Shown here in pieces: positions 3,116 through 53,795 of a stretch of DNA of 64,000 nt (positions are counted from its first letter, which is position 1; each line of letters opens with the position of its first letter). The notes under the pieces were generated by a model that did no database searches, was not told the origin of the DNA, and worked only from the letters and a program-made list of their open reading frames with translations. A program made the position numbers and the translations under genes. Origin of the DNA: a virus (taxonomy: Duplodnaviria; Heunggongvirae; Uroviricota; Caudoviricetes). The DNA is taken from the IMG/VR virus record IMGVR_UViG_3300022660_000042. One strand, given 5' to 3'.

Positions 3116-4192
3116 TTAACTGAAAAACTCGAACATCGTCGGGCGTTCCAAATTAATTTCTTCCTTTGGACCTAACCAACCGGCAATTCTGAACATCGTA
3201 TCAAAAAGCTGACAGAACGATTTTCTGAACGCGGTTTCATAGTCAATCTCAAAGTATTTATTAAATTCTTTCGGCCAAGATTCAAGATATGCAACCGCTT
3301 CAATCGGTTCTATCTTTCCGTCCATATCCTTAGCTGAAATCTTTTGAGAAGGCTTTACATATACATAACGCAATTTTGAGTTATTACGAATCGGATTATA
3401 TTTCAACCTGTCCTTTGTGATAATATAGTTGTAGATAATGGAAATCTTTGCACCGAAAATAAGACCTGTCGGAAGAATCAAACCATGGTCCATATAATAG
3501 TCCATAAGAGTTTCGTATTTCGTGTCGAACGGCTGTGTATTCATCGAACTTTCCATATATTGTTCTCTGAATTTATCCATTGCGATTGTAGTATATTTCG
3601 TATAGTTCTTGATACCAATAACAGACGAAATAACATTCAAATCTGAGCTCTTAAACTGGTCATAAACCTTGTAGATATATTCCTGTGCTTCTTCCTTACC
3701 GATACCGTCACAAATTTTGAACGCGAGTTCTTCGGCTGCAACCTTACAGAAGTCAGGCATTATAGATTTCTTAATAGGAATACCCATGATTTTGTGTTTC
3801 ATGTGGTCCAACGGAAACTTCTTACCTTCACTGTCGATAATATTACCGATATACAACTTCTTCGCAAAACAGAACATGTTTTTGAAGATATTTTCACGGT
3901 TAAAATTAATCTTATTGACTGTATGGAATTGTGTGGCTCGAATTTCAAGAATCCTATCAAAAAAGCGCTGGAATATGTTTTCGCATTTCTCAAAATATCT
4001 ACGATATTCATCTTCATTCGTAATCGATAAACCAGATTCTAATAAACGACGCTTAAGTTCGATAATCGAGAAATAAACGGAGTCCGTGTCATTATGTACG
4101 GCACAGACATCACGTCCTTTCACAACAAGCGGACTCATGTTGTTCATTTGAAATTTATCAATCTTTACATCTAATGCTTTCTTAAATTCCAT
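3116..4192 (-). CDS. family-B DNA polymerase, C-terminal subunit (palm motif C / thumb)
   Basis: Contains the HNDTDSVYF motif C (YGDTDS-type). Real start ATG at 4192..4190 (MEFKKALDV...) with GAGGA Shine-Dalgarno 6 nt upstream. The junction with the upstream gene is TAA-A-ATG. Confidence 0.8.
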   Translation of the reverse strand: MEFKKALDVKIDKFQMNNMSPLVVKGRDVCAVHNDTDSVYFSIIELKRRLLESGLSITNEDEYRRYFEKCENIFQRFFDRILEIRATQFHTVNKINFNRENIFKNMFCFAKKLYIGNIIDSEGKKFPLDHMKHKIMGIPIKKSIMPDFCKVAAEELAFKICDGIGKEEAQEYIYKVYDQFKSSDLNVISSVIGIKNYTKYTTIAMDKFREQYMESSMNTQPFDTKYETLMDYYMDHGLILPTGLIFGAKISIIYNYIITKDRLKYNPIRNNSKLRYVYVKPSQKISAKDMDGKIEPIEAVAYLESWPKEFNKYFEIDYETAFRKSFCQLFDTMFRIAGWLGPKEEINLERPTMFEFFS

Positions 4193-4193
4193 T

Positions 4194-6401
4194 TTAATCC
4201 TCAATACCGAGAAGGTCAGTGTCCTTGTTGAATTCATAAGCATAGATTTCCATTTCGTCATTACCGCGAAGAACGGTAATCTTTTCATAGAAATCATACT
4301 TATATGTCTTTTCTTCTGTAATAATGGAAACTGTCGAGAATTCCTTAATTACATCCTTGAGCAAGTACGGAGAAACATAGTATTCGTTAAGATGCTTAGT
4401 CAACCAGTCTCTCAAGGTAACACGAGCACAACGACAAATTGCACGGGCAACATCCGGGTCATACAATGCGAAGCTGTTTGCAAGAGATACACCGTAAACC
4501 GAGTTAATAATCAACTTCTTGGTCATTTGTCGGTTATGATAAAGATGTGCACCAGCCTTGTCACCATTCTTTTCACATTCCTTTTCCTTATTCTTATATA
4601 TCTTACGTTCTGCAAACACCTGCTTAACAACGTTCGGAAGAATACCATCGTCACGGTTATAGAACCCAAGTTCTGCAACATCCGTCGGAATAACCTCACC
4701 GGATTCAATCTGTTCCTTAGTAGGATGAACAACCTTCAATTCTGGAGAGATATGGAATTCCATAATATGGTGCGGATATGAAGACGTAATATCGAAAGAC
4801 ATACAGTCGTCATGTCGGCCAGGGAAGTCATAACAATAACCGGCTTTTACCTGGAATTCTGGGAATGGATGAGGATCCTTCTTATAAGCATTCCATGCTT
4901 CTATGAAAGCATCTTCAGTTTTCCAATGTTCAAATCGTTTCTGACCAACTATTGACCTAATCGTGGCATAATCGGCTTTTCCTACTTTCTGAGCTTCCTT
5001 ATAGGCATCATAGAAAATCCTGAACTTACAATAATCCTTGTAACGTTTTGCACCAGGTTCCCATTCAGTGTTCTCGAAGTAATCGTTTCCATCCTTATCC
5101 TTGATAATATAGCAACGTTCGTTTCTCCACCAGTCAACATGATGGTCTTCGCGGTCATTAAGCACACGGTTTGTCTTGTGCAAGAACTTCAAGATATAAC
5201 CGGTAGTCGTCGGAACTTTCTGTTCAACCTTATCGAGAGTTACAAGGCAATCGAACGCATATTCAATAATAAGGTCGAAAAGCTTATTCTTTGTTTCCAA
5301 GTCGACCATAATCATAACGTCCTTTCGGTTATACTTCAGGAAGTTATTACCGTCAATCTTGTAGGTTTCAGAAATCGCACCGCTATACTCCAATTTCTGG
5401 TCATTCAATTCGAGGTTGGCCACATAGTTAAGAGAATACGAAGAAAGAGGCGGATGAGATCCGAAGACTTCGTACAGTTTCATGTAGTCAAGCGAATACA
5501 AACCAGGAATGGTATATTTAGTTCCGAGTTCGACATTTTCCATCTTGCGGTCAGTAATCTTTTCCGCAATAGGCATCATGCCAAGAGGAGACAACTGCTT
5601 TTCCCATTCTACCTTTATATCCAGTTTTTCTCTAAGGACTTCACAACGACGCATGATATACGGAATATCGTATGCAAGCGAATTCCAACCTGTAATGATG
5701 TCAAAATGGTTATTGGCGAACCACTTTATCCATTCTCGGATAAGTACCGCTTCTGACTTACAATACGTATAGTTAGGCAAATCCTTAGGGTCATCCGTAT
5801 ATCTGATTGTACTCCAGGTATAAGATTGCTTTGTCTTTGTAGAATAACAAGTAATTGCGTTAATCGGCCATTGTGCTATTTCAGGAGACGGGAAATCATA
5901 GGAAACGAAACAGCTGTCTTCGTACGGAAGATATTTATCAACTTCAATATCATAAACGAAATACTTATCATGGTCAAACTTCATGTCGAAATCAATAAGA
6001 CTAACATCGATAGTCTTATTGGTTTTCTTCTCACAAACTTTAATCAACGTTTCGTCATAATACTTACTGCCAGACGCAACTTCAATATCGAAGAAACAAA
6101 TGTTCCACAAACTCATGTCTACATGGAGTTCTTCGTTATCGTACAGCTGATGCATGTATTTGACTTCAGGACGCAAATTACCTTCACAGACGCCTTTCAG
6201 ACCTATTAACGAATTTCGGTCCTTATAAGGGAACCTTTCCATTGGAGTCTTATGAATATCGGTAAGCTTGCTCTTTTTTGTCTTATCAGGAATGTAGCAC
6301 CAGTTATTGAATTCTACTTCCTTAAATTCAGTATCTTCTTGGGCCTTAAAGTATAACTTTTGTTTCTTAAAGTCCCAATAACAATTTTTAAATCCACTCA
6401 T
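4194..6401 (-). CDS. family-B DNA polymerase, N-terminal subunit (3'-5' exonuclease plus palm motifs A and B)
   Basis: 735 aa; Exo I FFDIEVASGS; motif A SFDITSSYPHHIM (DxxSLYPS-type); motif B KKLIINSVYGVSLANS (KxxxNSxYG). Ends with TAA at 4196..4194. Confidence 0.85.
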   Translation of the reverse strand: MSGFKNCYWDFKKQKLYFKAQEDTEFKEVEFNNWCYIPDKTKKSKLTDIHKTPMERFPYKDRNSLIGLKGVCEGNLRPEVKYMHQLYDNEELHVDMSLWNICFFDIEVASGSKYYDETLIKVCEKKTNKTIDVSLIDFDMKFDHDKYFVYDIEVDKYLPYEDSCFVSYDFPSPEIAQWPINAITCYSTKTKQSYTWSTIRYTDDPKDLPNYTYCKSEAVLIREWIKWFANNHFDIITGWNSLAYDIPYIMRRCEVLREKLDIKVEWEKQLSPLGMMPIAEKITDRKMENVELGTKYTIPGLYSLDYMKLYEVFGSHPPLSSYSLNYVANLELNDQKLEYSGAISETYKIDGNNFLKYNRKDVMIMVDLETKNKLFDLIIEYAFDCLVTLDKVEQKVPTTTGYILKFLHKTNRVLNDREDHHVDWWRNERCYIIKDKDGNDYFENTEWEPGAKRYKDYCKFRIFYDAYKEAQKVGKADYATIRSIVGQKRFEHWKTEDAFIEAWNAYKKDPHPFPEFQVKAGYCYDFPGRHDDCMSFDITSSYPHHIMEFHISPELKVVHPTKEQIESGEVIPTDVAELGFYNRDDGILPNVVKQVFAERKIYKNKEKECEKNGDKAGAHLYHNRQMTKKLIINSVYGVSLANSFALYDPDVARAICRCARVTLRDWLTKHLNEYYVSPYLLKDVIKEFSTVSIITEEKTYKYDFYEKITVLRGNDEMEIYAYEFNKDTDLLGIED

Positions 6402-7173: not shown

Positions 7174-8193
7174 TTAATTCGCAGCTGTCTCAAGCTCAGC
7201 ATCAGTGGTCGTGTTTTCTTCATTAGATGGCATTTCAAAAGTCGATTCTCCGTCTGCTACAACTTCGAATTCTTCAACAGGTTCATTAGATTCTTCTTTA
7301 TGCTGTGCTTCTTGTTTTTCTTCAGATAGCTTCTTAATTCTTTCACTATTAGCCTTCACCAAAGCAAGTCGCTTAGCACCTTCGTCTACTTGGACAGAAG
7401 ATTGCTTAGTAAGCGTACTTCCCAATTCACTCAGATCTGCGGTTTCGAGCATTGCATCGAGGTTAGCTTTCTTTTCTTTCAAGATTTCTTCTTCAGTTTT
7501 CGCAGGTTCTGCTTTTTTAACAACTTTAGGTTTCGTTACTTGCGGTGCTGCTGCAGTTTCAGTTACTTTTTCAGTCTTCTTTTCGACAACTTTGGCTGCA
7601 ACGGGCTTTTTCTTAATAACAGTCTTTTTAACCGGAGCAGGTGCTACAACAACTTCCGGTTCTTTTTCTTTGTAAATAATCTTTGGAGCTGGCGGTGGTG
7701 GATTCATGATTTCATCACACATGTCCAACATGCATTCATTAAGCTTTGTGAGGCCAGTCATTCCATATTTAAAAAACATTGCGGTCATTTTCTCTTTCAT
7801 TTCGTCAATAAGAGAAAAAGCTTCAGAAAAAGCGGGGTTATTAATATAACCCGCACTTTCTGTAAATGTTTGTGGCTTTTTAGCTGGACGTCTGCGAACA
7901 GGCGCCGGCTCTACATAATTCGTATCATCGTCAAAATCGGGTTCAGCAGGAACTGGTGCAGGACGCGGTGCCGGAGCAGGAGCCGGACGTGGCGCAGGCC
8001 TTGGTGAAGGACGCTGCGTACGATGGGCTTCATTTATTTCCGGAACTTCGTCATTATAGAATTCATCATCTTCAAGCTCATCGACATTGACTGTCTGAGC
8101 CTTATAATTCTTATATGCCTCAAGTTTCTGTTCTTCGGTATAAGACGGGTCGTTTCTATGTAGATAGCTTATAAAAGAATCACCATTACTCAT
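7174..8193 (-). CDS. hypothetical Pro/Ala-rich protein
   Basis: 339 aa with a PRPAPRPAPAPAPRPAPVP repeat and K/E-rich coiled segments. Confidence 0.5.
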   Translation of the reverse strand: MSNGDSFISYLHRNDPSYTEEQKLEAYKNYKAQTVNVDELEDDEFYNDEVPEINEAHRTQRPSPRPAPRPAPAPAPRPAPVPAEPDFDDDTNYVEPAPVRRRPAKKPQTFTESAGYINNPAFSEAFSLIDEMKEKMTAMFFKYGMTGLTKLNECMLDMCDEIMNPPPPAPKIIYKEKEPEVVVAPAPVKKTVIKKKPVAAKVVEKKTEKVTETAAAPQVTKPKVVKKAEPAKTEEEILKEKKANLDAMLETADLSELGSTLTKQSSVQVDEGAKRLALVKANSERIKKLSEEKQEAQHKEESNEPVEEFEVVADGESTFEMPSNEENTTTDAELETAAN

Positions 8194-22017: not shown

Positions 22018-22082
22018 ACCTAAAAAATAAAAGGCTGACTTGCGTTAACCTTTTACCCTCACACATCCAATATTCTTTTTTC

Positions 22083-31116: not shown

Positions 31117-31148
31117 AATATAGAAAAAGGGCCGACTTTCGTCAACCC
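31117..31148 (-). promoter_or_regulatory. sigma70-type promoter TTGACG-17-TATATT inside GAAA-tetraloop hairpin plus T-run
   Basis: Minus strand reads GGGTTGACGAAAGTCGGCCCTTTTTCTATATT. Plus coordinates: AATATA 31117..31122, CGTCAA 31140..31145, hairpin 31129..31148. Confidence 0.65.
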
Positions 31149-31178
31149 TTTATTATTATAGGAGAAAATATATACTTA

Positions 31179-32819
31179 TTAGCGACGACGGCGACGAGAA
31201 AGTTCAGCAATAACTGTCGGATCGTTCATCATGTCCGAAAGGCTACGTCCAATAGAAGTATTAGCTTCAGCCGGTTCCTTAGTCTTGTCAACATTCGGAG
31301 TTTCCGGACGAGCTTCAGCCTTAGGTTCATTTACGACTTCTGCTTCGGTCTTTTCAACCTTTGGAGCACCGGAAACACCAGCGAGTCGGGCACCGAACAT
31401 AGAACCGAGAACAGTCTTGAGGTCCATACCGAGAGAATCGGTCAAACCGCTAGAAATCTGAGTAAGCGTCTTGGTAATATCGCCGGTGAGCTTTGCAGTA
31501 CCGCTTTCACCGTACATATTGATGTTACCAATCTTTTCCATCGGCTTAGCAACTGCACCAGCGATAGCCGGGAGCTGTTCGAAATACTTTTCAATAGTCT
31601 TGAGCTGCATTTCCTGACGAGCTGCATCACCATACTTCTTCATGGCTTCAGCCTTCTGGTCAAGAGCTGCTGCTTCTGCAAGACCCTTAGCCTTTACAGC
31701 ATCAGCTTCAGCTTCACCCTTAGCCTTAGTAGCTGCAGCTTCAGCGAAAGCCTTTTCCTTATCAGCTTCAGCCTTGGCGATAATTGCCTTAGCTTGCTGC
31801 TGCTGGGTAAAGAGTGCTGCTTCAGCTTCCTTCTGCTGCTTATAAAGTTCAGCATCAGAACGCTGCATCTGAGCCTGCTTATCGGCTTCAGCCTTCTTCT
31901 GAATTTCAGCTTCGAGTTCCTTCTGACGGACAGCTACCATGCGTTCACGAATTTCAATCTGCTTTTCCTGCTTTGCAACTTCTGCAGCTGCTGCAGTAAT
32001 ATTGATGGTCTTCTGCTGTTCCTGCTTCTGAATTTCATAAGCGGCATCAGCTTCGGCCTTCTTAGTATCAGAAATTCGCTTAAGGTCAGCCTTCTTAACT
32101 TCGAGGTCGTTCTGCTTCTGAGCGATTTCAAGGTTTGCTGCAACCTGAGCATCGTTTGCTGTCTTCGCTGCTTCAGCCTGAGCAATCTTCACGTCACGTT
32201 CTGCATTTGCTCGAGAAATTGATGCAGCCTTCTGAATTGCTACAGCCTTATCAACACCGAGGTTTTCAATTACCTTACCGTCGTCCGAGAAGTTCTGAAT
32301 ATTGAAGGTCTTAACGATAATACCGAGCTTTTCAAGATCTGGAATAGCATTTTCAAGAACCTTCTCAGAAACCTGCTTTCGGTCCGTAACCATGTCGACA
32401 AGATTCATCTGGCCGACAATCTCACGCATATTACCCTCAAGCACGTCAACAATCATCGCCTTAATCTGTTCAATCGGCTTATTGAGGAAGTTCTGGGCAG
32501 CTTTCTTAATTGCTTCAGGTTCATCAGAAATCTTTGCATTAACAACAGCGTCAACTGTTACATTAATGTAGTCCTTGGTCGGAACTGCCTGCTTAGTCTT
32601 GACGTCAATCGGAATCAACTTCAAGCTAAGAACGTCAGCACGTTCAAGGAACGGGATCTTGAAACCGGCATGCCCGATAATTGTTCGAAGCTGTCGGAAA
32701 CCCGAAATAATAATTACTTCATCCGGCGCCGCCTTAATATAAGACGTAATGAAGAGGATAACGAGGAAAAGTACGAGCAGGCCGATACCCGCACCGATGA
32801 GGATATTTGAACTAAGCAT
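31179..32819 (-). CDS. flotillin-like SPFH/band-7 domain protein with long Ala/Glu/Lys-rich coiled coil
   Basis: N-terminal TM helix, then an SPFH-like region (APDEVIIISGFRQLRTIIGHAGFKIPFLERADVLSLKLIPIDV...), then a ~200-aa AEA/AKA-repeat coiled coil typical of flotillin/YqiK. Confidence 0.75.
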   Translation of the reverse strand: MLSSNILIGAGIGLLVLFLVILFITSYIKAAPDEVIIISGFRQLRTIIGHAGFKIPFLERADVLSLKLIPIDVKTKQAVPTKDYINVTVDAVVNAKISDEPEAIKKAAQNFLNKPIEQIKAMIVDVLEGNMREIVGQMNLVDMVTDRKQVSEKVLENAIPDLEKLGIIVKTFNIQNFSDDGKVIENLGVDKAVAIQKAASISRANAERDVKIAQAEAAKTANDAQVAANLEIAQKQNDLEVKKADLKRISDTKKAEADAAYEIQKQEQQKTINITAAAAEVAKQEKQIEIRERMVAVRQKELEAEIQKKAEADKQAQMQRSDAELYKQQKEAEAALFTQQQQAKAIIAKAEADKEKAFAEAAATKAKGEAEADAVKAKGLAEAAALDQKAEAMKKYGDAARQEMQLKTIEKYFEQLPAIAGAVAKPMEKIGNINMYGESGTAKLTGDITKTLTQISSGLTDSLGMDLKTVLGSMFGARLAGVSGAPKVEKTEAEVVNEPKAEARPETPNVDKTKEPAEANTSIGRSLSDMMNDPTVIAELSRRRRR

Positions 32820-42247: not shown

Positions 42248-42754
42248 AACTTATCCTTAACAATTAAATATAGCAAAACTGTAACAAATAGTTTACAACC
42301 TATATATAAAAGTTCTATGATTTTTAAAACGACAGAATATTTTATTTTTAGTTAAAAAAATTTTTACAAAAACTTTCTATTATTGTTTTCACATATTCAA
42401 GTCTGATTCCTCGGAACGAAAACCAATCCAATGGAATTATCGGTAGAGGGTCAGCCATTGAAAACTTCAGATACGGGTTTTCCAGAAATGAGCTGGAATA
42501 TCGTTTTGAAATATACTCGGTAACAGCTAGTGAAAGTATCAGCGAAGTACAGATTAGCAATCTGCACGTTTAGCCGCCATGGTTTTAACGGATGTAGCCG
42601 AAGTACAGGATGACCGCCTCGTAAGCCGTTATGTAAATCCCTAAAGATTGACGATGAAGCTTTATACCAAAAGTGGAATAGTCATAGTCTGGAAGTTCCT
42701 TCTAGGCTTATGATCTCTGAATCGCATTACCCAAAAGATAGAACAGATAAAAAT

Positions 42755-45738: not shown

Positions 45739-46890
45739 TTAGGCTACATTGTCTCGTTTTACGAAAATGGTAAATCCAAGGAAACCAATAAAATAGAGAA
45801 GTGCCAAAACAAGATATAAAGTATTGTCAGTAAACAAGTTTCCAAGAATAGGTCCCGCAATTCCAGCAAATCCCCAGGCACTAAGCGTCATAGAGTGAAC
45901 TGTAGAAAGACAACTATCTCCGAATCTCTTAGCAAGTAAACTTGGCAAACAACTGAATCCTCCGCCGTAGTTCCATTCAATCATCAAAATACCAGCTACA
46001 AGCAAAATCGGATTTTGTGTATAACACAAAAACGCACCAAGAATACCCAAACTTGCAACCCAATGATAAGCAGCCTTTCTACCAATCGAATCACTAGCCG
46101 TACTCATTCCAAATCGACCACCGACATTTGCAACAGCTGTAGCAGCCATAAGTGAAGCGATAGCAGTATATCCAGCATTTAAAAACAGGCTCTTTTCCTG
46201 AGAAATAAGTGCAAGGCCGCATGTAATGTTGATAAAGAACATAAACCAAATCGAAATATATTCTTTAGTCAAAAATTTGGCCTTTATAAGAGTCTTATAC
46301 GGAATAGCAGTATATTTTGTAGAAATATATGCAGGATTAGGTTTATATAGCCATGAAGAGAAACTCATTACAACTAAGAAAATCAATCCCATGAGTAAGA
46401 ATACAACTGGCAACGTAAAGGTTGCAAGCAAATACTCAATCATAGGAGCCGCAACGAACTTTCCCAATCCGAAACCGGTAATAGCCAATCCGGAAGCGAG
46501 TCCTTTATGATTACTGAAGTTTGCAAGCAGCTGTTTAATTGGTGCCGTATAGCCTATGCCGGTACCGCAACCCATAAATGAACAGCCGATATAATAAAGT
46601 GGTAAAAATCCAGTATAGGTTGCAAACGAAAGTAGCAATAATCCTATTGCAAACAGAATTGTTGAAACTATCGCCATTCGTTTCGGGAACATTTCAACGA
46701 ATCTTCCGAAAACCGCAGCACCCATGCCAAGGAAGAAAATAATCAGAGTAAATCCAATATCAGCTGAGAATTTCGAAATATCAAAAGTCTCCATGATATT
46801 CTTGGCATATTGTGAATAGTTATAAACTGAACCTAAACTGACAGGTAACAAAATACCCGGAATTAAAATATTGAGAAATCTATTTGTCAT
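45739..46890 (-). CDS. MFS-family transporter (oxalate/formate antiporter-like)
   Basis: 383 aa with ~11-12 hydrophobic helices spaced throughout, as in major facilitator superfamily transporters. Confidence 0.7.
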   Translation of the reverse strand: MTNRFLNILIPGILLPVSLGSVYNYSQYAKNIMETFDISKFSADIGFTLIIFFLGMGAAVFGRFVEMFPKRMAIVSTILFAIGLLLLSFATYTGFLPLYYIGCSFMGCGTGIGYTAPIKQLLANFSNHKGLASGLAITGFGLGKFVAAPMIEYLLATFTLPVVFLLMGLIFLVVMSFSSWLYKPNPAYISTKYTAIPYKTLIKAKFLTKEYISIWFMFFINITCGLALISQEKSLFLNAGYTAIASLMAATAVANVGGRFGMSTASDSIGRKAAYHWVASLGILGAFLCYTQNPILLVAGILMIEWNYGGGFSCLPSLLAKRFGDSCLSTVHSMTLSAWGFAGIAGPILGNLFTDNTLYLVLALLYFIGFLGFTIFVKRDNVA

Positions 46891-46891
46891 A

Positions 46892-47266
46892 TTAATTGAA
46901 TGCCGTAGTAATAGGGTCTTTGAATACTTCCTTGAATTCGTGTTTGAGTTTCATATTGAAATGCCAATATGGGTCGAATAATGGATCCGTATTTTCAATC
47001 AATCCGATAGTATCAGATTCTTCCTTTGGAATGTCCCATGAAATATCAAATATTCCATTATCAAGAACATTTAAAGTAAACTTTATATTCGGACAAGTAC
47101 CATCCCGGTCAAATATATGACCGAAAATACCAGCAATATCTTCAGTAATGAAATTGCTAGGTGGTTTGATAAGTAATTTGTATACGCCTGTTCTGAATTT
47201 TATATTATTATCATCTATCTTGTCACGCCAAGTAGATGAATATGTTGAATCATATGTCATTTTCAC
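46892..47266 (-). CDS. hypothetical protein
   Basis: 124-aa ORF. Confidence 0.45.
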   Translation of the reverse strand: MKMTYDSTYSSTWRDKIDDNNIKFRTGVYKLLIKPPSNFITEDIAGIFGHIFDRDGTCPNIKFTLNVLDNGIFDISWDIPKEESDTIGLIENTDPLFDPYWHFNMKLKHEFKEVFKDPITTAFN

Positions 47267-48042
47267 CTCGTCTTATAACCAAAGGGCAACATTTCGTCCT
47301 TTATAAATTCTTTATATTTATACAGTCCGATTTCTTCAATTACCCAATTTTCATCGACGGGTTTAGTAAAGTCAAAAACAGGAATACAGTCATATTTCGT
47401 ATGCTGATTAAACTTATAGAGGTAGTTTAAGAACATAGCAATATCAGTATTGCAATAATCTATAAAATTTTTGCACTCATCTACCGTAGCAAATCCGATA
47501 TACTGATTTTTGAGTTTTAAGGCACTTTCGGGGACGTTTTGAACTGGAGTATATCTTTCCTTGGACAAAAGCGTACACCAGTCCCAGGCTCGTCTATGGC
47601 CTCTTATATCGCTTAATTGGATATACCAGGTATTCTTCTTTCCCTGTTCGGTTCCAATAGTCTTTTTTCCAACCAGATATGCATCTACAATCTTCGTAAT
47701 TTCCTTATATTTCTCAGGATCCGAAAATCTGTTAAATCGTAAATCATAGAGGTCAAGTTTCTTTTGGTCAAACTTGAAAATACCTACATCCGAGAAAAAT
47801 TCAGCATCTTCAAACTTTGCATCACCGACAACGGTTTCAATACGGCTAAAAGACTCAAATCTTTCATTGAGAATTTCGATATGCTTATTGTTGATATTTT
47901 CCTTAATACGATGATTGTCTACAAAATCAGTAGGTACAAGCCAAACGGCGGAATCTGCGAATTTCTCACATTCCGACATTACTTTTAAATAAAGCTTTTC
48001 GCCTTTACCGATATATGGTGGATTTCCGATTATTGTAAACAT
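47263..48042 (-). CDS. N6-adenine DNA methyltransferase, C-terminal fragment (motif IV NPPY onward)
   Basis: Starts MFTIIGNPPYIGKG. FTIIGNPPY matches the gamma-class motif IV context (TaqI FDLILGNPPY, from memory). No SAM-binding motif I in this ORF. Confidence 0.7.
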   Translation of the reverse strand: MFTIIGNPPYIGKGEKLYLKVMSECEKFADSAVWLVPTDFVDNHRIKENINNKHIEILNERFESFSRIETVVGDAKFEDAEFFSDVGIFKFDQKKLDLYDLRFNRFSDPEKYKEITKIVDAYLVGKKTIGTEQGKKNTWYIQLSDIRGHRRAWDWCTLLSKERYTPVQNVPESALKLKNQYIGFATVDECKNFIDYCNTDIAMFLNYLYKFNQHTKYDCIPVFDFTKPVDENWVIEEIGLYKYKEFIKDEMLPFGYKTR

Positions 48043-48431
48043 AGAAGGTCACGTTCAGCTTGTAGATTAGAAATAACTTTTAAAAAATCTCCGTCGTTAT
48101 TTATTGTAATGGTCCAATCCTTACCGCTAACTACGTCGCCGTGCAAAAATTTGACATCACAAGAACTCGGTTGAATACTGAAAACTTTATCATCATATTT
48201 TTCTTGACTTTCATAGATGGCTTTAAATTTCTTTGAACAAAAACCAACACCAGAATATAAATTCGGGGCTTTAAATAAACCATAACAACATGGCAATCTT
48301 CCAAGGTTACTACTATAGTCCTGGCTTGAGAAATAACAGACTCTATCTATTAAATCGGAAGTAACAGAATGTTTAATTGTCTTATCATTTCGAACAATCG
48401 AGAATTTAATCTTTTTCTTAAACCAAAGCAA
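48030..48431 (-). CDS. small protein, tandem paralog A (C-terminal GDxVxGKDWTIxINxDGDFxKVIxNLxxE motif)
   Basis: 133 aa; C-terminal ...HGDVVSGKDWTITINNDGDFLKVISNLQAERDL is shared with the next two ORFs. Confidence 0.5.
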   Translation of the reverse strand: MLWFKKKIKFSIVRNDKTIKHSVTSDLIDRVCYFSSQDYSSNLGRLPCCYGLFKAPNLYSGVGFCSKKFKAIYESQEKYDDKVFSIQPSSCDVKFLHGDVVSGKDWTITINNDGDFLKVISNLQAERDLLCLQ

Positions 48432-48813
48432 TTTCAGTCTCCAGGTTATAAATCAATTTTTCAAAACTAAATTGAGAATCTAATGTAATCGTCCAGTCAT
48501 GGCATTTAACAGTATCGCCAAGCTTGAAACTCGCGCCACAATCATCAAGATTCTTATAGCTAGAGCCAAACATTACATCCTGATATTCTTCCGGGTACAA
48601 TACCATGTATTTTGTAAATTCTTGATTATCATTAGTAAAACTTAATCGGGTATCGTCTTTTCGAGAAGAATTACAAAGGTAATATTTTCGTGTTTTACCG
48701 TTATGAACAATCTTTACTCTTAAAGTATTAGAACTATGTCTTCTACTGCAATACATATTCCATTTCCAAGTTGTTGAAGAGACGTTTAAAATCACCAGTA
48801 GTATTAAGTTCAA
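48418..48813 (-). CDS. small protein, tandem paralog B
   Basis: C-terminal ...LGDTVKCHDWTITLDSQFSFEKLIYNLETEIAL. The real start is probably the internal MYCSRR. Confidence 0.5.
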   Translation of the reverse strand: MNLILLVILNVSSTTWKWNMYCSRRHSSNTLRVKIVHNGKTRKYYLCNSSRKDDTRLSFTNDNQEFTKYMVLYPEEYQDVMFGSSYKNLDDCGASFKLGDTVKCHDWTITLDSQFSFEKLIYNLETEIALV

Positions 48814-49201
48814 TAGTCCAGGTAGGAAATACTACCTTATCGCCACGTTTGAGAATATATGTTGCATCACATGGATATACATGAGAACCATAATGTACAC
48901 GTGTTTCAACTTCATCATGTTCAGACATATATCTTACACCAAATCCATAAATTTCTTCAGGTGTTGGATTATGCAGCTGACCCATCGAAAGAATATCATA
49001 ATATTGCGACATACTATCAAAACGTTGTGTCAAATCCGGCTTATATTTATCGCTGCTATAAATTGTAGTCTTAAACCAAGGCGCATATTCGAGACGACTT
49101 GAACGACCATTTCGAAAAACAGTAAATAAAACCGGTTTTTCATGTTTCACCGATTCTTTGGTTTCAGGCTCATCATAGATATGTTTATAATCTGTCAACA
49201 T
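48743..49201 (-). CDS. small protein, tandem paralog C
   Basis: C-terminal ...RGDKVVFPTWTIELNTTGDFKRLFNNLEMEYVL. Confidence 0.5.
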   Translation of the reverse strand: MLTDYKHIYDEPETKESVKHEKPVLFTVFRNGRSSRLEYAPWFKTTIYSSDKYKPDLTQRFDSMSQYYDILSMGQLHNPTPEEIYGFGVRYMSEHDEVETRVHYGSHVYPCDATYILKRGDKVVFPTWTIELNTTGDFKRLFNNLEMEYVLQ

Positions 49202-49647
49202 ACAAATTCCGCAAATCCGCTATTTTCAATTTTTGTTTCATCGACTTCTTCTTTAGGTTTCCAGTTTTCAAAATCCCACTTAAAGAAATCGGCACATACA
49301 ATATTTTTGTTTACAATTTTACTGTATTTAGGTCCAACAATTTCAAGAATTCTTTGGACACACAAATCTCTGTTATCCTGCATTAATTCAACACCGTAAA
49401 GTGTCTTTACTGCATCTTCAACCGAAATTCCAGAAGCAAGACGTTTTTCAAGCATACGAACAAGGATGTTTCCGCTTCCCGCTGTAGGATCCAAAAATGT
49501 GGCTTTAGGGTCTTTCCATTTTTCTTCAGGAATTTTAGTAATCATTTGGTCAATAACTGCAAATGGTGTAAATACTTCACCGTTCTTGGTGATACGTTCT
49601 TTAGAACGTTGAATTCCATCATTAGTAGTAAATAACTCTTTAGACAT
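49195..49647 (-). CDS. N6-adenine DNA methyltransferase, N-terminal fragment (motifs X, I, II, III)
   Basis: EVFTPFAV (FTP motif), FLDPTAGSGN (motif I FxGxG), YGVEL (motif II) and VCADFFKW (motif III, compare TaqI ADFLLW). The ORF then stops before any NPPY. Confidence 0.7.
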   Translation of the reverse strand: MSKELFTTNDGIQRSKERITKNGEVFTPFAVIDQMITKIPEEKWKDPKATFLDPTAGSGNILVRMLEKRLASGISVEDAVKTLYGVELMQDNRDLCVQRILEIVGPKYSKIVNKNIVCADFFKWDFENWKPKEEVDETKIENSGFAEFVC

Positions 49648-49684
49648 AATTTAAATATAACAATTTTTCTTAATTTTGTAAGCG

Positions 49685-50467
49685 CTATCGTGATGCATAG
49701 CTTTCAGACCAGTCTTCTTTTTCGATAGCATGCATTTTTGCATATGAATCTTTACTGTCACCTTCAAATTTAGCCAAATCACTTAGTAAATCACAGTTAT
49801 GCATAATTGCTTTTGCGGTACATTCCTTAAATCTTCTAACATCATCACTGTTTTTAATTGAAAGTATGGCATTCAAGTTATAGAAAAAACAATCCATATC
49901 TTCTTTATCTGAATTTACTCTAATAGTCTGACATGTATGATAAAAACCTTTTGTTTTTCCAATAGAATATATACAATTTTTTATAATGTTTGCTCTGGCA
50001 GAATTTTTATTTACAAACATTTTTCCAAGTTCATAAGTATCAAAACTATATTCTAGTTCATAAAATCTATATTCATATCTATATGTTTTAGGGTCATTTT
50101 TCAAATGATATTTTCCAACTCTTTTATTATATCTTGCACGTATATTTAAAATAACATCATTATCCGAATGTTTTATATTGAAAATGATGGTAGAATATGG
50201 TATAATATCTGTAACTTCTTCAGGTTCAATTATAGAACCATTATATGTTACTGGTGCTTTATTAAATGCCGAAACATCATAACCGCATACTTCAATACCA
50301 TATTTTTCAAACAGTTTAATAATCTGAAAAATTTCACCTTTTCTAGCTGTTATTTCTTTCTTTGTCTGTTTGATTTTATCAATAACTTTATTATACTGCT
50401 TGATGGGTTTATCAAGAAGTTTGTTAATATCGTTTCCAATTTTAATATCTAAATCTTTCATAATCAA
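49685..50467 (-). CDS. hypothetical protein, array family X (copy 1)
   Basis: 260 aa. C-terminal ...ECTAKAIMHNCDLLSDLAKFE resembles X2 (...CKAAKQNLLMLKSINKLE) and X3 (...CYMARQDMETLKCIEKLD). Also shares a mid-protein GY-II and an RYY/RLY-x-S/T-x-R motif. Confidence 0.5.
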   Translation of the reverse strand: MIMKDLDIKIGNDINKLLDKPIKQYNKVIDKIKQTKKEITARKGEIFQIIKLFEKYGIEVCGYDVSAFNKAPVTYNGSIIEPEEVTDIIPYSTIIFNIKHSDNDVILNIRARYNKRVGKYHLKNDPKTYRYEYRFYELEYSFDTYELGKMFVNKNSARANIIKNCIYSIGKTKGFYHTCQTIRVNSDKEDMDCFFYNLNAILSIKNSDDVRRFKECTAKAIMHNCDLLSDLAKFEGDSKDSYAKMHAIEKEDWSESYASR

Positions 50468-50862
50468 CCAGGCAAAACATCAAATGTTTGTTCAACAGCA
50501 TGCATTTTTAAACGTAAATCGATTTTATAAAAATCAACCTCTCCATCATAGATAGCTTTCAAAAAGATTTTAAGATCTTCTCTTTCCATCTTATTAAACC
50601 AGAACATATGCATATCATCGTTCGGTTTATTTCCATTATGGATTGACATAGCGCTACTGTGAAGTTTTACGCACAACTGATGTCCTGGTAAATGATAATA
50701 AACCGAATGATAACCCTTTATAAATCCAAAAGTTTTCAAAAATGCATCCATAATATCACGTATATGGTCAGCAAACGCTGGAGCTTCATCCAGACATTGC
50801 ATAAAATACGCAAGTTTCATCTCTTTTGGCATATCTGCAAAATTTGAAAGTTTAAATTTCAT
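50464..50862 (-). CDS. hypothetical protein, array family Y (copy 1)
   Basis: 132 aa ending ...VLPG, the same length and C-terminal LPG as Y2. ATGA overlap with X1. Confidence 0.5.
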   Translation of the reverse strand: MKFKLSNFADMPKEMKLAYFMQCLDEAPAFADHIRDIMDAFLKTFGFIKGYHSVYYHLPGHQLCVKLHSSAMSIHNGNKPNDDMHMFWFNKMEREDLKIFLKAIYDGEVDFYKIDLRLKMHAVEQTFDVLPG

Positions 50863-50863
50863 A

Positions 50864-51436
50864 TTATTCGAGTTTGTTAATTGATTTTAACATCAATAAG
50901 TTTTGTTTTGCTGCCTTACATGTAAAATCTCTGTATCTGATAAAATCATCTTCAGTAGTTATTTCGGTTAATGCATCAATTAGCATAAAGAATGTATCTA
51001 CCTTTTCTGGTTCGGTATCGGCAAAAATCTGAATGAACGGTGTTTCATTAGTAGCCCTAGCGTAATGATATTTTATTGTATCTTTCTTAGCTACATATCC
51101 GCCTTTATGACGAATAGACAAATATAGACGACCATTTAATTCTTCTTTTTTAGAAGCAGAAACATTATAATTTAAAACTACAGAATGTGTATTTTCTTTA
51201 CGAATATGAATTGCTGCAAACTTATTATCATTAACTGCATCAATAGATGGTTCTATTACTTCATGGTATATAATTTTATATCCTCTTGAAGTAATCATAT
51301 TTTCAAGAATTTCTGCATCTTCTTTATTTTTCTCATATATAGAACGAAACCGGTTAATAGCCCGGTCGCGTAAATTATTATAATATTCTTTTATACGCTC
51401 AATATTGTCGTCTACTATATTTGAAAATTTACACAT
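50864..51436 (-). CDS. hypothetical protein, array family X (copy 2)
   Basis: 190 aa; paralog of X1 and X3. Confidence 0.5.
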   Translation of the reverse strand: MCKFSNIVDDNIERIKEYYNNLRDRAINRFRSIYEKNKEDAEILENMITSRGYKIIYHEVIEPSIDAVNDNKFAAIHIRKENTHSVVLNYNVSASKKEELNGRLYLSIRHKGGYVAKKDTIKYHYARATNETPFIQIFADTEPEKVDTFFMLIDALTEITTEDDFIRYRDFTCKAAKQNLLMLKSINKLE

Positions 51437-51439
51437 ATA

Positions 51440-51838
51440 TTACCCAGGTAATTTGTCGATTGCTTCTTTCACTTCGGCTTCTTTAATTGCTAAACAATAC
51501 TTTCTGTAATATTCTAAAAAGTCTTCTTTAGATTCGTCATCTACATAATGCATTATAACCGCTGGAAGAAGAGTCATTTCATCACTGCAAATTTTAAAAC
51601 TCTGCTCAAGATTTATTATCTCCAGCAATGTACAAAAATTATTAGTCTTTGCAGATTCAATAGCTGCATTTTCCGGCGCAGTTACAACAATATTTCCATC
51701 AATGTAAAATTTTACTAATTCTTTATAAAGATTACTAACTTCACATGTAATAACTTTGCATTTGGCAAAATTTAAACACGTGTATTTATTAGTACCAGGT
51801 GAAGAATGTAGTAACAGCATATTAATCCAGCTTTTCAA
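51440..51838 (-). CDS. hypothetical protein, array family Y (copy 2)
   Basis: 132 aa ending ...KLPG. Confidence 0.5.
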   Translation of the reverse strand: MKSWINMLLLHSSPGTNKYTCLNFAKCKVITCEVSNLYKELVKFYIDGNIVVTAPENAAIESAKTNNFCTLLEIINLEQSFKICSDEMTLLPAVIMHYVDDESKEDFLEYYRKYCLAIKEAEVKEAIDKLPG

Positions 51839-52415
51839 TGCATTTCAATGTTTCCATATCTTGACGTGCCATATAGCATACGCCAGTTCTGTAACGTTCT
51901 GAATTCTGGTTTTTACGTACTTCTTCCAATTCGTTGAGCAAATTGAAGAAAATATCCTTCAATTCTTTCGGGCTGTCGACACGTACATGACAACGAGGAC
52001 GTGCATTCATAGCGCTAATCATAACATTTCGCTGTGCTTCCCAATCATCGCTATATGCATTGTTGTACATGGTATCGTCGAATGTCGCACGCATAGTTAC
52101 ATAGTAACGGCCGGTTTTCTTCTTGTTGTTACTGGCCATATCGATATGGTGCTTAATTCCGTCTTTTCCCTTTTGAACAATAAACGGAACACGGTTTGAT
52201 TCAAAATTGAAAACAGAAAAACCGATAATGGAATATCCATATTCAGCAAACATGGTTTCAAAATGCTTAAGCTGATTTTCATAGATCTCTTGGAGTTCTA
52301 TGCTTCTACGACGCTTGGAGTCGATAGCATGCTTAATATGCTCGATTTGTTCAAGCATTTTGTTTTCGTCTTTTGTAACTGCGGCATTTACTGCTTCTAA
52401 GAAATTTTTATACAT
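51822..52415 (-). CDS. hypothetical protein, array family X (copy 3)
   Basis: 197 aa; paralog of X1 and X2. Confidence 0.5.
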   Translation of the reverse strand: MYKNFLEAVNAAVTKDENKMLEQIEHIKHAIDSKRRRSIELQEIYENQLKHFETMFAEYGYSIIGFSVFNFESNRVPFIVQKGKDGIKHHIDMASNNKKKTGRYYVTMRATFDDTMYNNAYSDDWEAQRNVMISAMNARPRCHVRVDSPKELKDIFFNLLNELEEVRKNQNSERYRTGVCYMARQDMETLKCIEKLD

Positions 52416-52421
52416 GACTAT

Positions 52422-52452
52422 AATATAATAAAAAGGCTGACTTTCGTCAACC
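52422..52452 (-). promoter_or_regulatory. sigma70-type promoter TTGACG-17-TATATT inside GAAA-tetraloop hairpin plus T-run (drives the X/Y array)
   Basis: Plus-strand AATATA at 52422..52427, CGTCAA at 52445..52450, hairpin AGGCTGACtttcGTCAACCT at 52433..52452 followed by a T6 run. Confidence 0.6.
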
Positions 52453-52478
52453 TTTTTTATTTTAACTATTACAGTGTG

Positions 52479-53795
52479 TTAATCTTGTTTCAAAGTTACA
52501 TTAATTTCATAACCCTTACCGTACTTATAGTTAGGAATATACTTAGTAATGAATTCTTCGAAATATTCCTTATTTTCCGGATAAGTAAGGTTATAAGTAT
52601 TACCGTCCATATCTTCTTCAGCTAGGTCGTAATTCAATTCTTTACTACAGAACTTAGTCCAGTTTTCCGGAGTTCCTGTAATCTTGAGAGCCCAGGTTCT
52701 TTCGGAATATGTGGTAAAGTAAGTAATATAGTTGGAATTTTCACCATATGGACCATAGTGACCCCAGTCTGCAACCGGTTCTTCATCAACATCCTGAGAA
52801 ACAGTAGCTTGTGTATGCTGTTCGGAAACATTCAAACCGAAATCGGCAAAGAAATCCTTGATAGCAGCAGTATCTACCCATGTCCAAGATTTACTAGAAT
52901 CAAAATCGGCCTTTCTGTGAATCATACCAATGGTAGTGCTACCCATTTGTTGAGCATCCTTACCGAGTGCATTAGCTTCAGCACGTTTTTTCATAGCACG
53001 CTGAAGCATTTCCTTACGGGTTTCAGCAGTCTCCTTCGGAGCTTCTTCACCCTTCTTAGGTCTGTAATCTTCAAGACCATAGGCCTTTGCATTCATGTGA
53101 TATGTTCTACGGCCTTCCGGTGTACGATTGTCCGCAGCCTTTGTCGTTTCGTGCTTAATGTAAGTATTGACAATAAGAGTAATTTCGTTAGTTGCTTCGT
53201 TGAGAACCGCTTCATAGCCTAGACGCTTGAGGGTTTCAAGTGCTTCTTCAACTTTGTTTTTACCCTTATCAGACTTCTTAGACTTAAACGCAAACCACTT
53301 GGACTTCTTGTTTTTCTTCTTACCTCCACAGCAGCAACTTTCGTTTTCGAGGTTCGTTTCTGGATCCACATAGGAATCATCTTCGAGACCTGTTTGCTGT
53401 TCGTCCTGGACTGCCTGTTCTGGAGTACCGAACATCTTAACGAATTCATCATAAGAAGTTTCATTGAACCATACCGGAATTTCAGTATCGTTCATTTCCG
53501 CCTTCCAAAGTTCATCGTCACCGTCAAACGGATAATTGAGGTCCTGTAAACCATTTACCGGCAATGCGTCATGCCAAAGAGTATACTGGTCATCTTTACC
53601 GCCGAGTGCTTCGTATTCTTCGAACCAATCATTACCGGTCTTTCCGGAATTATCACAAGAACCGTCAGCACAAGAACCGTCGCCGCATTCATTTATGAAA
53701 TTATTGCGGAAAGCACGGAATTCATTCCTGAACTTGAATTCTGCAGGAAGTGAATCTAAATGTTGTTCATCGTGAGAATACATTAACACCTCCAA
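52479..53795 (-). CDS. hypothetical protein (acidic N-terminus, CCCGGKKKNKKSK basic patch)
   Basis: 438-aa ORF. Confidence 0.5.
   Translation of the reverse strand: MEVLMYSHDEQHLDSLPAEFKFRNEFRAFRNNFINECGDGSCADGSCDNSGKTGNDWFEEYEALGGKDDQYTLWHDALPVNGLQDLNYPFDGDDELWKAEMNDTEIPVWFNETSYDEFVKMFGTPEQAVQDEQQTGLEDDSYVDPETNLENESCCCGGKKKNKKSKWFAFKSKKSDKGKNKVEEALETLKRLGYEAVLNEATNEITLIVNTYIKHETTKAADNRTPEGRRTYHMNAKAYGLEDYRPKKGEEAPKETAETRKEMLQRAMKKRAEANALGKDAQQMGSTTIGMIHRKADFDSSKSWTWVDTAAIKDFFADFGLNVSEQHTQATVSQDVDEEPVADWGHYGPYGENSNYITYFTTYSERTWALKITGTPENWTKFCSKELNYDLAEEDMDGNTYNLTYPENKEYFEEFITKYIPNYKYGKGYEINVTLKQD

What the first reader, a model, noticed from the sequence alone, without database searches (positions are those of the whole stretch)
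49685..52452. Alternating tandem array of two novel paralog families (X1-Y1-X2-Y2-X3) under one hairpin-promoter
Five consecutive overlapping genes form a duplicated two-gene module. Family X has three copies (260, 190 and 197 aa) with shared C-terminal C(K/M)A(A/R)xQ...L(K/S)xI(N/E)KL(E/D) and a mid-protein (Y/E)GY(K/S)II motif. Family Y has two copies, both exactly 132 aa and ending in LPG. Neither family matches anything I recognise. The array sits in a visibly more AT-rich segment directly upstream (in transcription) of the interrupted MTase, behind a strong consensus promoter at 52422..52452. Divergent tandem duplicates of a gene pair in a phage accessory island are a hallmark of genes under diversifying selection, for example anti-defense or host-takeover factors, so this is a candidate undescribed two-component system.
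Basis: partly seen in the sequence, partly recalled or inferred. Interest (0 to 1): 0.72.

Follow-up and report, generated by a model that had tools for sequence, protein, structure and literature searches.

The report
Orphan three-paralog early operon, rumen phage
Five tightly packed early genes of an uncultured rumen jumbo phage encode three old copies of a protein family with no known relative, plus two small unrelated-looking proteins; the array is real and conserved, but it is not a recently duplicated gene pair and shows no sign of diversifying selection.

Summary
The five minus-strand genes are real, translationally coupled and conserved in related rumen metagenome phages (contigs up to 424 kb).

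Family X is confirmed. X3, X2 and X1 are true paralogs (BLASTP 4e-11, 8e-7, 1e-3). They are ancient: each has its own ortholog in every related lineage, always in the order X3-X2-small gene-X1.

Family Y is not confirmed. Y1 and Y2 align only over their last 22 residues. Y2 is probably 126 aa, not 132, and exists in one clade only. More distant relatives carry a third, unalignable small protein in the Y1 slot. The "duplicated X-Y module" reading therefore fails.

Gene-wide dN/dS is 0.06-0.49. That is purifying selection, though looser than in neighbouring core genes.

The hairpin-promoter is real. It is more conserved than the proteins, occurs three times in the window, and fits the known PeSL terminator/promoter motifs of T4-like phages.

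Best reading: a non-enzymatic, probably multi-subunit early accessory protein set of unknown target. Interest is modest.

The parts
52422..52457 (-). Composite terminator/promoter (PeSL-like). Hairpin 52430-52457 is AAAAAGGTTGAC-GAAA-GTCAGCCTTTTT. The -35 box TTGACG (52450-52445) lies inside the left arm and the -10 box TATATT is at 52427-52422. The X3 ATG begins 6 nt after the -10 box, with no Shine-Dalgarno sequence.
   Evidence: The consensus scan finds both the promoter and the terminator. RNA fold is -21.7 kcal/mol, z = -6.5. The element is nearly invariant across clades A and B, with a stem change that keeps pairing. The same element precedes the first X gene in L012, L013 and L022, where X proteins are only 30-35% identical. 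Two further copies lie in the window at 31125-31149 and 22028-22052.
51822..52415 (-). X3, 197 aa: first gene of the operon and the most conserved X paralog.
   Evidence: BLASTP to X2 gives 4e-11. Orthologs are 95-97% identical in clade A, 65-66% in clade B and 30-33% in far relatives. dN/dS is 0.06-0.16. The AlphaFold model has pLDDT 89.9 and pTM 0.80: helix 5-58, four strands, then helices 125-138, 150-169 and 173-196.
51440..51820 (-). Y2, 126 aa from the ATG at 51820 (the ORF reaches 51838 if the TTG is used). A clade-A-only small acidic protein with conserved Cys15/21/26/109 that ends in DKLPG.
   Evidence: Gene callers give 124-126 aa in relatives. Only 6 clusters were found, all at least 71% identical. 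It is absent from clade B and from far relatives. dN/dS is 0.22-0.37, with dS 2-4 times that of the flanking genes.
50864..51436 (-). X2, 190 aa: the paralog present in every X-bearing lineage in which X2 and its downstream neighbour could be read, and there always followed by a small gene of about 120-135 aa. The exception is L028, which carries only an X1-like gene and an unlinked Y1-family gene.
   Evidence: BLASTP to X3 gives 4e-11 and to X1 8e-7. Orthologs are P0026, P0027, P0029 and the 192-aa clade-B protein. dN/dS is 0.14-0.28.
50464..50862 (-). Y1, 132 aa: a small protein in the slot between X2 and X1 that ends in DVLPG.
   Evidence: Orthologs are 91-95% identical in clade A, 34-35% in clade B and 40% in L028. 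dN/dS is 0.14-0.39. No family or PDB match was found.
49685..50461 (-). X1, 258 aa from the ATG at 50461: the longest and fastest-evolving X paralog. It carries insertions in the beta region and a 25-residue C-terminal extension ending in SR.
   Evidence: BLASTP to X2 gives 8e-7 over the C-terminal helices. Orthologs are 89-95% identical in clade A, 38-42% in clade B and 31-38% further out. In clade B the start is GTG at the aligned position. dN/dS is 0.19-0.49.
49654..49682 (-). Promoter-like site (CTTACA-17-TATATT, with TG before the -10 box). Its -10 box lies 6 nt before the MTase motif-I gene and marks the downstream limit of the X/Y unit.
   Evidence: The site is found and has the same TATATT-6 nt-ATG geometry as at X3. 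Relatives carry insertions exactly at this junction: L005, L011 and L021.
49195..49647 (-). Neighbour, not part of the families: a 150-aa stand-alone N6-MTase motif-I protein (MTn). It follows the X/Y block in all six X-bearing arrangements whose downstream end could be read.
   Evidence: Pfam N6_Mtase E 1.5e-6 and phrog_21201 E 5.6e-23. It is 56-71% identical in L012 and L013, where it directly follows the block. It also occurs without X/Y in L018-L020 and L025.

Best explanation
SHOWN
- This is a conserved early-type transcription unit of a T4-like jumbo phage lineage from the rumen. It starts at a PeSL-like terminator/promoter hairpin.
- It encodes five translationally coupled genes with weak or no ribosome-binding sites.
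- Three of them (X3, X2, X1) are anciently diverged paralogs of a lineage-restricted protein family. Their order is fixed across all related lineages, and each subfamily has its own conserved residues.
- The slot between X2 and X1 always holds a small, fast-evolving protein of about 120-135 aa: Y1 here, the unalignable Y' in far relatives.
- Y2 is an extra small gene gained, or uniquely kept, in one clade.

INFERRED
- X is not an enzyme. Across the paralogs only a Gly and a Phe-Phe pair stay invariant.
- X is a binding or scaffold protein built from a long heptad-patterned N-terminal helix, a four-stranded sheet and two C-terminal helices.
- The paralogs have specialised as distinct subunits or distinct-target binders. 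They are made together in fixed proportion by termination-reinitiation from one, probably leaderless, early mRNA.
- They most likely assemble with each other and with the small slot protein into a complex that acts on a host or phage macromolecule early in infection, as an accessory host-adaptation function.
- The target is unknown.
For: - Coding and coupling.
- Paralogy.
- Orthology of each paralog and fixed order in clade B, L012, L013, L021, L022 and L026.
- Subfamily-specific invariant polar residues, against only G60/F156/F157 family-wide.
- Purifying selection, dN/dS 0.06-0.49.
- Promoter/hairpin conserved beyond protein conservation.
- Ribosome-binding sites: X3 has none, and its ATG lies 6 nt after the -10 box. 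The other four genes have at most GGA or GGT, while about half of the window's genes have a Shine-Dalgarno sequence of 4 nt or more.
- Heptad periodicity of the N-terminal helix: p 0.000-0.04 in the X3 and X1 subfamilies. Sub-threshold hits to coiled-coil Pfam families also fall there.
- Rarity: 14 clusters among 1.84 billion representatives. None was found in 50,697 phage isolates or in genomes of 185,579 species.
Against: - No direct evidence exists for complex formation, timing of expression or any target.
- No multimer model could be run.
- Lineages exist with only two X paralogs (L012, L013) or with X1 and Y1 unlinked (L028). A strict three-subunit complex is therefore not obligatory.
- Heptad periodicity is not significant in the X2 subfamily (p 0.13-0.24). 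The long helix may simply pack against the C-terminal helices within one chain.
- The transcription start is inferred from a consensus match only.
Confidence: 0.5

Rival explanations
1. One reading: a recently duplicated two-gene X-Y module, diversifying under an arms race as anti-defence or host-takeover factors.
For: X/Y genes evolve faster than neighbouring core genes: 35-66% against 83-96% amino-acid identity between clades. The region is plastic and AT-rich. Y2 alleles are unusually divergent. Nothing excludes an anti-defence role.
Against: Each paralog has its own ortholog in every lineage, so the duplications are old. Clade B lacks Y2, and far relatives show X3-X2-Y'-X1. Y1 and Y2 share only 22 residues. 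Gene-wide dN/dS is always below 0.5. PADLOC and PHROGs give no match.
Confidence: 0.12
2. X and Y are accessory factors of the adjacent split DNA methyltransferase, serving for example in assembly, specificity or regulation.
For: The 150-aa motif-I protein follows the block in all six X-bearing arrangements whose downstream end could be read. These are clades A and B, L012, L013, L022 and, after a 4-kb insertion, L021.
Against: The motif-I gene has its own promoter-like site. Insertions of 1-4 kb separate it from X1 in L005, L011 and L021. It occurs without any X/Y within 6 kb in L018-L020 and L025. L028 has X1-like and Y1 genes with no methyltransferase nearby.
Confidence: 0.1
3. The shared C-terminal endings (I-E/N-K-L-D/E in X, h-D-x-L-P-G in Y) are a short docking peptide for one common hub, for example the phage sliding clamp. 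From memory, the T4 polymerase tail is SLDFLFG.
For: A flush C-terminal motif h-polar-x-h-(P/E/D)(G) occurs in X3, Y2, X2 and Y1 but in only 1 of 94 other minus-strand ORFs. This is a post-hoc pattern. LPG is kept through 35% identity, with synonymous codon changes.
Against: In L028 the analogous LE(E/D)LE endings are simply the translation of a Shine-Dalgarno sequence plus an ATGA overlap. In the window the endings contain CTGG(A/T/G) 6-9 nt before the next ATG, in different frames. A nucleotide-level coupling signal may therefore explain them. This phage's own polymerase C-terminal part ends in TMFEFFS, a different tail. A Y-tail HMM does not find the X tails.
Confidence: 0.05
4. X and Y are virion or internal head proteins rather than early effectors.
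Against: Those scores are at noise level. The location is among DNA-metabolism genes: DHFR, UvsY, methyltransferase and polymerase. The promoter is sigma-70-type rather than the TATAAATA late-type motif seen before other genes.
Confidence: 0.05

Closest known systems
PeSL (promoter-early stem-loop) composite terminator/promoter motifs of T4-like phages (Arbiol et al. 2010, PMC2839356; Comeau et al. 2014, PMC4122927)
   Same: A short, highly conserved element combines a stem-loop/terminator with a sigma-70-type -35/N17/-10 promoter. It is repeated in the genome and placed at the borders of variable ORFan gene blocks. The A-run/G...C/T-run stem resembles the nt-1 type (A3-4G3-loop-C3T3-4) described in PMC4122927.
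   Different: Here the -35 box lies inside the left arm of the stem. The -10 box is only 6 nt from the start codon, implying a leaderless message. Only three copies were seen in 64 kb. A role in recombination was not tested.
Hyperplastic-region ORFan genes and tandem paralog sets of T4-like phages (for example the T4 modA/modB pair; from memory)
   Same: These are small early genes of unknown or accessory function, tightly packed, lineage-specific and faster-evolving than the core genome.
   Different: X has no ADP-ribosyltransferase or any other enzyme signature. The three paralogs are old and kept in fixed order across lineages that differ by 65-70% in sequence, which is unlike freshly shuffled ORFans.
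Long-helix plus alpha/beta-head dimerisation scaffolds (PI31/Fbxo7 FP domain, NAP1/SET, Csm1, GrpE)

Membership tests
X as one paralog family | Significant pairwise or profile similarity among the three copies over the domain | tested here: met
   BLASTP gives 4e-11, 8e-7 and 1e-3. One profile recovers all three subfamilies and nothing else.
Y as one paralog family | Significant similarity over most of the length | tested here: not met
   There is no BLASTP alignment. hhalign aligns 22 of about 130 residues only. HMMER gives E 0.29 against the window background.
Y as one paralog family | Shared C-terminal tail (Y..L......E..h-D-x-L-P-G) of common descent | tested here: inconclusive
   hhalign gives E 3e-5 to 1e-4 and probability 57-72%. 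The last codons may also be constrained as a coupling signal for the next gene.
Duplicated X-Y two-gene module | The X-Y pairs are each other's closest relatives, and the module number varies by whole pairs | tested here: not met
   X3, X2 and X1 each match their orthologs in other lineages far better than they match each other. Relatives differ by single genes: Y2, X1 or X3.
PeSL terminator/promoter motif | Sigma-70-like -35 and -10 boxes with a spacer of about 17 nt, joined to a stem-loop with a T-run | tested here: met
PeSL terminator/promoter motif | Repeated in the genome and conserved between related phages | tested here: met
   Three copies lie in the window. The element is nearly invariant in clades A and B and present in L012, L013 and L022.
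PeSL terminator/promoter motif | Sits at the borders of indels between close relatives (recombination role) | tested here: inconclusive
   The gene just upstream varies from 126 to 438 aa among relatives. Breakpoints were not mapped to the motif.
ADP-ribosyltransferase paralogs (Alt/ModA/ModB type) | HMM match and a conserved catalytic triad | tested here: not met
   There is no Pfam, PHROG or NCBIfam hit. An apparent H-Y-E set in the 18-sequence alignment disappears when far relatives are added.
Known defence or anti-phage system proteins (PADLOC) | HMM match | tested here: not met
   There are no hits for any X or Y. No anti-defence library was available.
Toxin-antitoxin-like two-gene pair | A known toxin or antitoxin domain; toxicity neutralised by the partner | not testable with these tools
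   No domain match was found. Toxicity needs experiment.
[not shown]
   [not shown]

The most novel reading that the evidence does not exclude
X1, X2, X3 and the small slot protein form a previously unseen hetero-oligomeric early effector complex with a new fold. This lineage of rumen jumbo phages would use it to take over or disarm its still unknown host. The three paralogs would supply distinct binding surfaces, and the fast-evolving small protein would tune specificity.
Probability: 0.2. Interest if true: 0.6.

Novelty: new member of a known kind. Interest (0 to 1): 0.33.

Why it matters
If the inference holds, this is a compact, conserved, co-translated set of orphan proteins with a confidently predicted fold that has no known neighbour. 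They are made at the very start of infection by large rumen phages whose hosts and biology are unknown. That makes it a reasonable target for structural and interaction studies.

It also shows that PeSL-type regulatory cassettes extend to jumbo T4-like phages of the gut.

As it stands, it is one of many orphan early-gene blocks in large phages. No function is attached to it, and the host is uncultured.

Tried and rejected
1. Y as a truncated X paralog.
- hhalign's best alignments are collinear with the X C-terminal part: the Y2 tail against the last X helix (E 0.04-0.05), Y' 83-100 and Y1 10-17 against the DSxKExxDxFF motif (E 0.4-0.7).
- None is significant, and a Y-tail HMM does not retrieve the X tails. 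The idea is left as an unproven lead.

2. X, Y, Z and the L028 small-gene array as one superfamily defined by the C-terminal LExL(E/P) ending.
- An HMM of the L028 tails finds nothing in the window.
- The L028 motif is the translation of GGAGG plus an ATGA overlap.

3. An H-Y-E catalytic triad in X. It disappears with more diverse sequences.

4. The X1 C-terminal extension as a remnant of a Y gene.
- The longest direct repeat in 47000-52600 links the X1 tail (DSYAKMHAIEK) and the Y1 tail (DLRLKMHAVEQ): 33 nt at 76% identity.
- The protein match has E 6.4, so this stays unresolved.

5. Y' against Y1 or Y2 by profile comparison: no similarity.

6. Searches that found nothing:
- megablast and tblastn against 50,697 phage records;
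- a genome-contig scan with X3;
- Rfam in the region.

7. Technical dead ends:
- The first AlphaFold run, on X2 with 18 sequences, gave pLDDT 56 and was not used.
- The afdb50 fold library was unavailable.
- The X alignment was too divergent for the search for related loci.
Full report
WHAT IS THERE

On the minus strand, 49685-52415 holds five consecutive ORFs. They join through TAAtATG, TAAtatATG, TAAtATG and TGAttATG.

Read from the most plausible starts, the genes are:
- X3, 51822-52415, 197 aa
- Y2, 51440-51820, 126 aa
- X2, 50864-51436, 190 aa
- Y1, 50464-50862, 132 aa
- X1, 49685-50461, 258 aa

The 132-aa length quoted for Y2 comes from a TTG inside X3. Gene callers on related contigs give 124-126 aa. 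In clade B, X1 starts with GTG at the position of the window's ATG.

All five genes are under purifying selection in pairwise comparisons with four related contigs. No plus-strand ORF in the region exceeds 94 aa.

WHERE IT COMES FROM

- The window has no near match among 50,697 phage records.
- Its family-B DNA polymerase is at most 35% identical to those of T4-like cyanophages and Xanthomonas jumbo phages.
- DHFR, UvsY, an MFS transporter and an SPFH/flotillin protein are nearby.
- An Rfam "cow-rumen-2" RNA lies at 42541-42645.
- Contigs carrying the same genes come from what appear to be rumen or gut metagenomes and reach 424 kb.

This is therefore an uncultured T4-like jumbo phage, most likely from the rumen.

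FAMILY X IS REAL AND OLD

- Pairwise BLASTP gives X3-X2 4e-11 over the full length, X2-X1 8e-7 and X3-X1 1e-3. The last two cover mainly the C-terminal helices.
- A profile of the three found 18 clusters among 5.8 billion sequences. It found only 14 clusters at 50% identity among 1.84 billion representatives. All are orthologs of one of the three.
- Each window paralog has its own ortholog in a second clade (L005-L008) at 65-66%, 56-59% and 38-42% identity. Each also has one in far relatives (L012, L013, L021, L022, L026) at about 30-35%.
- The order is always X3, X2, small gene, X1, although one member can be missing. L012 has X2-Y'-X1, and L013 and L026 have X3-X2-Y'.
- The triplication therefore predates all these lineages.

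FAMILY Y IS NOT ESTABLISHED

- Y1 and Y2 give no BLASTP alignment.
- Profile-profile comparison aligns only the last 22 residues, flush with both C-termini. E is 1e-4 with probability 57%, improving to 3e-5 and 72% with an extra Y1 homolog.
- A Y1 HMM ranks Y2 fourth among the window's six-frame ORFs, at E 0.29.
- Y2 is confined to clade A, with 6 clusters all at least 71% identical. It is absent between X3 and X2 in clade B, where the two genes abut.
- In far relatives the slot after X2 holds a different protein of 121-135 aa, Y', which ends in (V/I)RA. It has no detectable similarity to Y1, Y2 or X.
- A Y1 homolog also occurs in L028, 3.3 kb away from an X1-like gene and inside an array of at least 20 other small paralogs.

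What is conserved is a small-gene slot after X2, not a Y family. The array is not a duplicated X-Y pair.

THE LPG ENDING

- LPG is conserved in Y1 orthologs down to 35% identity, with synonymous variation: TTG CCT GGT, TTG CCG GGT, TTA CCT GGG. This points to constraint on the peptide.
- In L028, however, the near-universal ending LE(E/D)LE is the translation of CTGGAGGAnCTnGAATGA. That is a Shine-Dalgarno sequence plus an ATGA stop/start overlap.
- In the window the X and Y endings all contain CTGG(A/T/G) 6-9 nt before the next ATG, read in different frames.
- Part of the shared ending may therefore be a nucleotide-level coupling signal. This weakens LPG as evidence of protein homology.

SELECTION

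Nei-Gojobori dN/dS values:

| Gene | dN/dS |
|---|---|
| X3 | 0.06-0.16 |
| X2 | 0.14-0.28 |
| Y1 | 0.14-0.39 |
| X1 | 0.19-0.49 |
| Y2 | 0.22-0.37 |
| DHFR, both MTase parts, MFS transporter (clade-A and cross-clade pairs) | 0.00-0.08 |
| the same four, clade-B pair L005/L006 | 0.07-0.15 |

The block evolves faster than the core genome but is not under gene-wide diversifying selection. Y2 also has 2-4 times the synonymous divergence of its flanks. That suggests exchange of old alleles rather than positive selection.

REGULATION

- The hairpin at 52430-52457 has 12 pairs, a GAAA loop and a T-run. Its fold energy is -21.7 kcal/mol, z = -6.5.
- It overlaps TTGACG-17-TATATT at 52450-52422.
- The element is almost invariant across clades A and B, with a stem change that preserves pairing.
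- The same element precedes the first X gene in L012, L013 and L022, where the proteins are only 30-35% identical.
- Two more copies lie at 31125-31149 and 22028-22052 (none expected by chance).

This fits the composite terminator/promoter "PeSL" motifs described for T4-like phages at the borders of variable ORFan regions (PMC2839356; PMC4122927).

- The X3 ATG starts 6 nt after the -10 box and has no Shine-Dalgarno sequence. Several other genes show the same CTATATT-N6-10-ATG geometry, while about half of the window's genes have a clear Shine-Dalgarno sequence.
- The message is therefore probably leaderless, and the four downstream genes, with at most GGA or GGT upstream, depend on coupling. 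This is inference; no transcript data were available.
- A second promoter-like site with the same geometry precedes the MTase motif-I gene (49654-49682). Relatives carry insertions at that junction. The X/Y block is therefore its own unit.

WHAT X LOOKS LIKE

- With 23 sequences, AlphaFold gave a confident X3 model with pLDDT 89.9 and pTM 0.80. It has a 54-residue N-terminal helix, a four-stranded sheet, a short helix and two C-terminal helices.
- The weak top hits share only the general "long helix plus alpha/beta head" build: the PI31/Fbxo7 FP domain, SET/NAP1, Csm1 and GrpE.
- Pfam, PHROGs, NCBIfam, PADLOC and PDB sequence searches gave nothing consistent. The sub-threshold Pfam hits are coiled-coil families on residues 10-51.
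- The N-terminal helix has significant heptad periodicity in the X3 and X1 subfamilies but not in X2.
- Family-wide, only G60 and F156/F157 are invariant. Each subfamily keeps its own set of polar residues.

This pattern argues against a shared catalytic site. It favours structural or binding proteins that have specialised.

MOST LIKELY MECHANISM

X3, X2 and X1, with the small slot protein, are made together from one early, coupled message. They act as a non-enzymatic set, probably as an assembly, on a host or phage target during early infection.

- Shown: the genes, the paralogy, the orthology, the fixed order, the selection regime, the conserved regulatory element, and the lack of relatives.
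- Inferred: the timing, the leaderless start, the assembly and the function.

RIVALS

- The duplicated-module arms-race model is contradicted in its structural claims but not in its functional guess.
- Linkage to the neighbouring methyltransferase is positional. Insertions break it, and MTn occurs without X/Y.
- A common docking-peptide role for the C-termini is possible, but a coupling-signal explanation undermines it.
- A virion role has only noise-level support.

VERDICT

X, the tight array, the promoter-hairpin and the AT-richness hold. The Y family, the equal lengths and the duplicated module do not.
- This is a new orphan family in a familiar kind of setting: a PeSL-bounded accessory block of a T4-like phage. 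The predicted fold is apparently new and no function is attached. Interest is modest.

Noticed in passing
window 42541-42645 (+): There is a full-length match to Rfam RF02947, "cow-rumen-2 RNA" (102.8 bits, E 1e-18). It lies on the strand opposite to almost all genes. An orphan metagenomic RNA motif is thus placed inside a jumbo phage genome.
   Followed up: no
[not shown]
   Followed up: partly
window 47263-48042 and 49195-49647 (-): The "interrupted" methyltransferase is an old split, not a recent disruption. The 150-aa motif-I part stands alone and is 56-71% identical in far relatives that have no NPPY part next to it. phrog_11371 carries the two parts in permuted order in one chain. In L020 an NPPY-like ORF sits directly upstream of the motif-I gene.
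   Followed up: partly
window 31125-31149 and 22028-22052 (-): Two further copies of the hairpin (AAGGTTGACGAAAGTCAGCCTTTTT-like) lie here. The first overlaps a TTGACG/TATATT promoter exactly as at X3. The second is followed by a separate TTGACA-17-TATATT promoter.
   Followed up: partly
window, starts at 52415, 49647, 41661, 41128, 37296, 28448, 6401; and 63985, 58440, 54553, 45668, 43820, 8193: Two recurrent upstream designs occur without a Shine-Dalgarno sequence. CTATATT plus 6-10 nt before the ATG suggests leaderless early messages. TATAAATA plus 4-6 nt before the ATG (14 nt, with an intervening AAGG, at 8193) resembles the T4 late promoter.
   Followed up: no
window 52479-53795 (-): The very acidic 438-aa gene (pI 4.7, net charge -31) just upstream of the hairpin varies from 126 to 438 aa among otherwise near-identical relatives. 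It may be the truly hypervariable gene of this neighbourhood.
   Followed up: no
L028 1-8614: This locus holds an array of at least 20 overlapping small paralogs (90-160 aa). They share a YNGKxY...LE(E/D)LE C-terminal module, whose last five residues are encoded by a GGAGG Shine-Dalgarno sequence plus an ATGA overlap. A Y1 homolog and an X1 homolog are embedded in the array.
   Followed up: partly
window 49718-49750 and 50488-50520: The longest direct repeat in the region (33 nt, 76% identical) links the X1 C-terminal extension (DSYAKMHAIEK) and the Y1 tail (DLRLKMHAVEQ). It could reflect gene conversion, a fusion remnant or chance.
   Followed up: partly
window 45739-46890 and 31179-32819 (-): The phage encodes an MFS transporter (Pfam E 4e-26) and an SPFH/Band-7-flotillin protein (E 7e-22). 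Both are unusual cargo for a phage.
   Followed up: no
window 3116-6401 (-): The family-B DNA polymerase seems split. A 735-aa ORF carries the exonuclease and only the first part of the polymerase domain. An overlapping 393-aa ORF follows and ends in TMFEFFS, a clamp-tail-like C-terminus.
   Followed up: no
L005 5295-6557 (-); L012 3586-4848 and 6039-7190 (-): IS605-family TnpB (Cas12f-like) genes are inserted close to the X/Y block in relatives. In L012 the insertion lies next to where X3 is missing.
   Followed up: no
L026 1198-1422: A 75-aa ORF joins the N-terminus of the motif-I methyltransferase to the C-terminal part of Y'. It is either a real recombinant or an assembly chimera on a 1.4-kb contig.
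   Followed up: no
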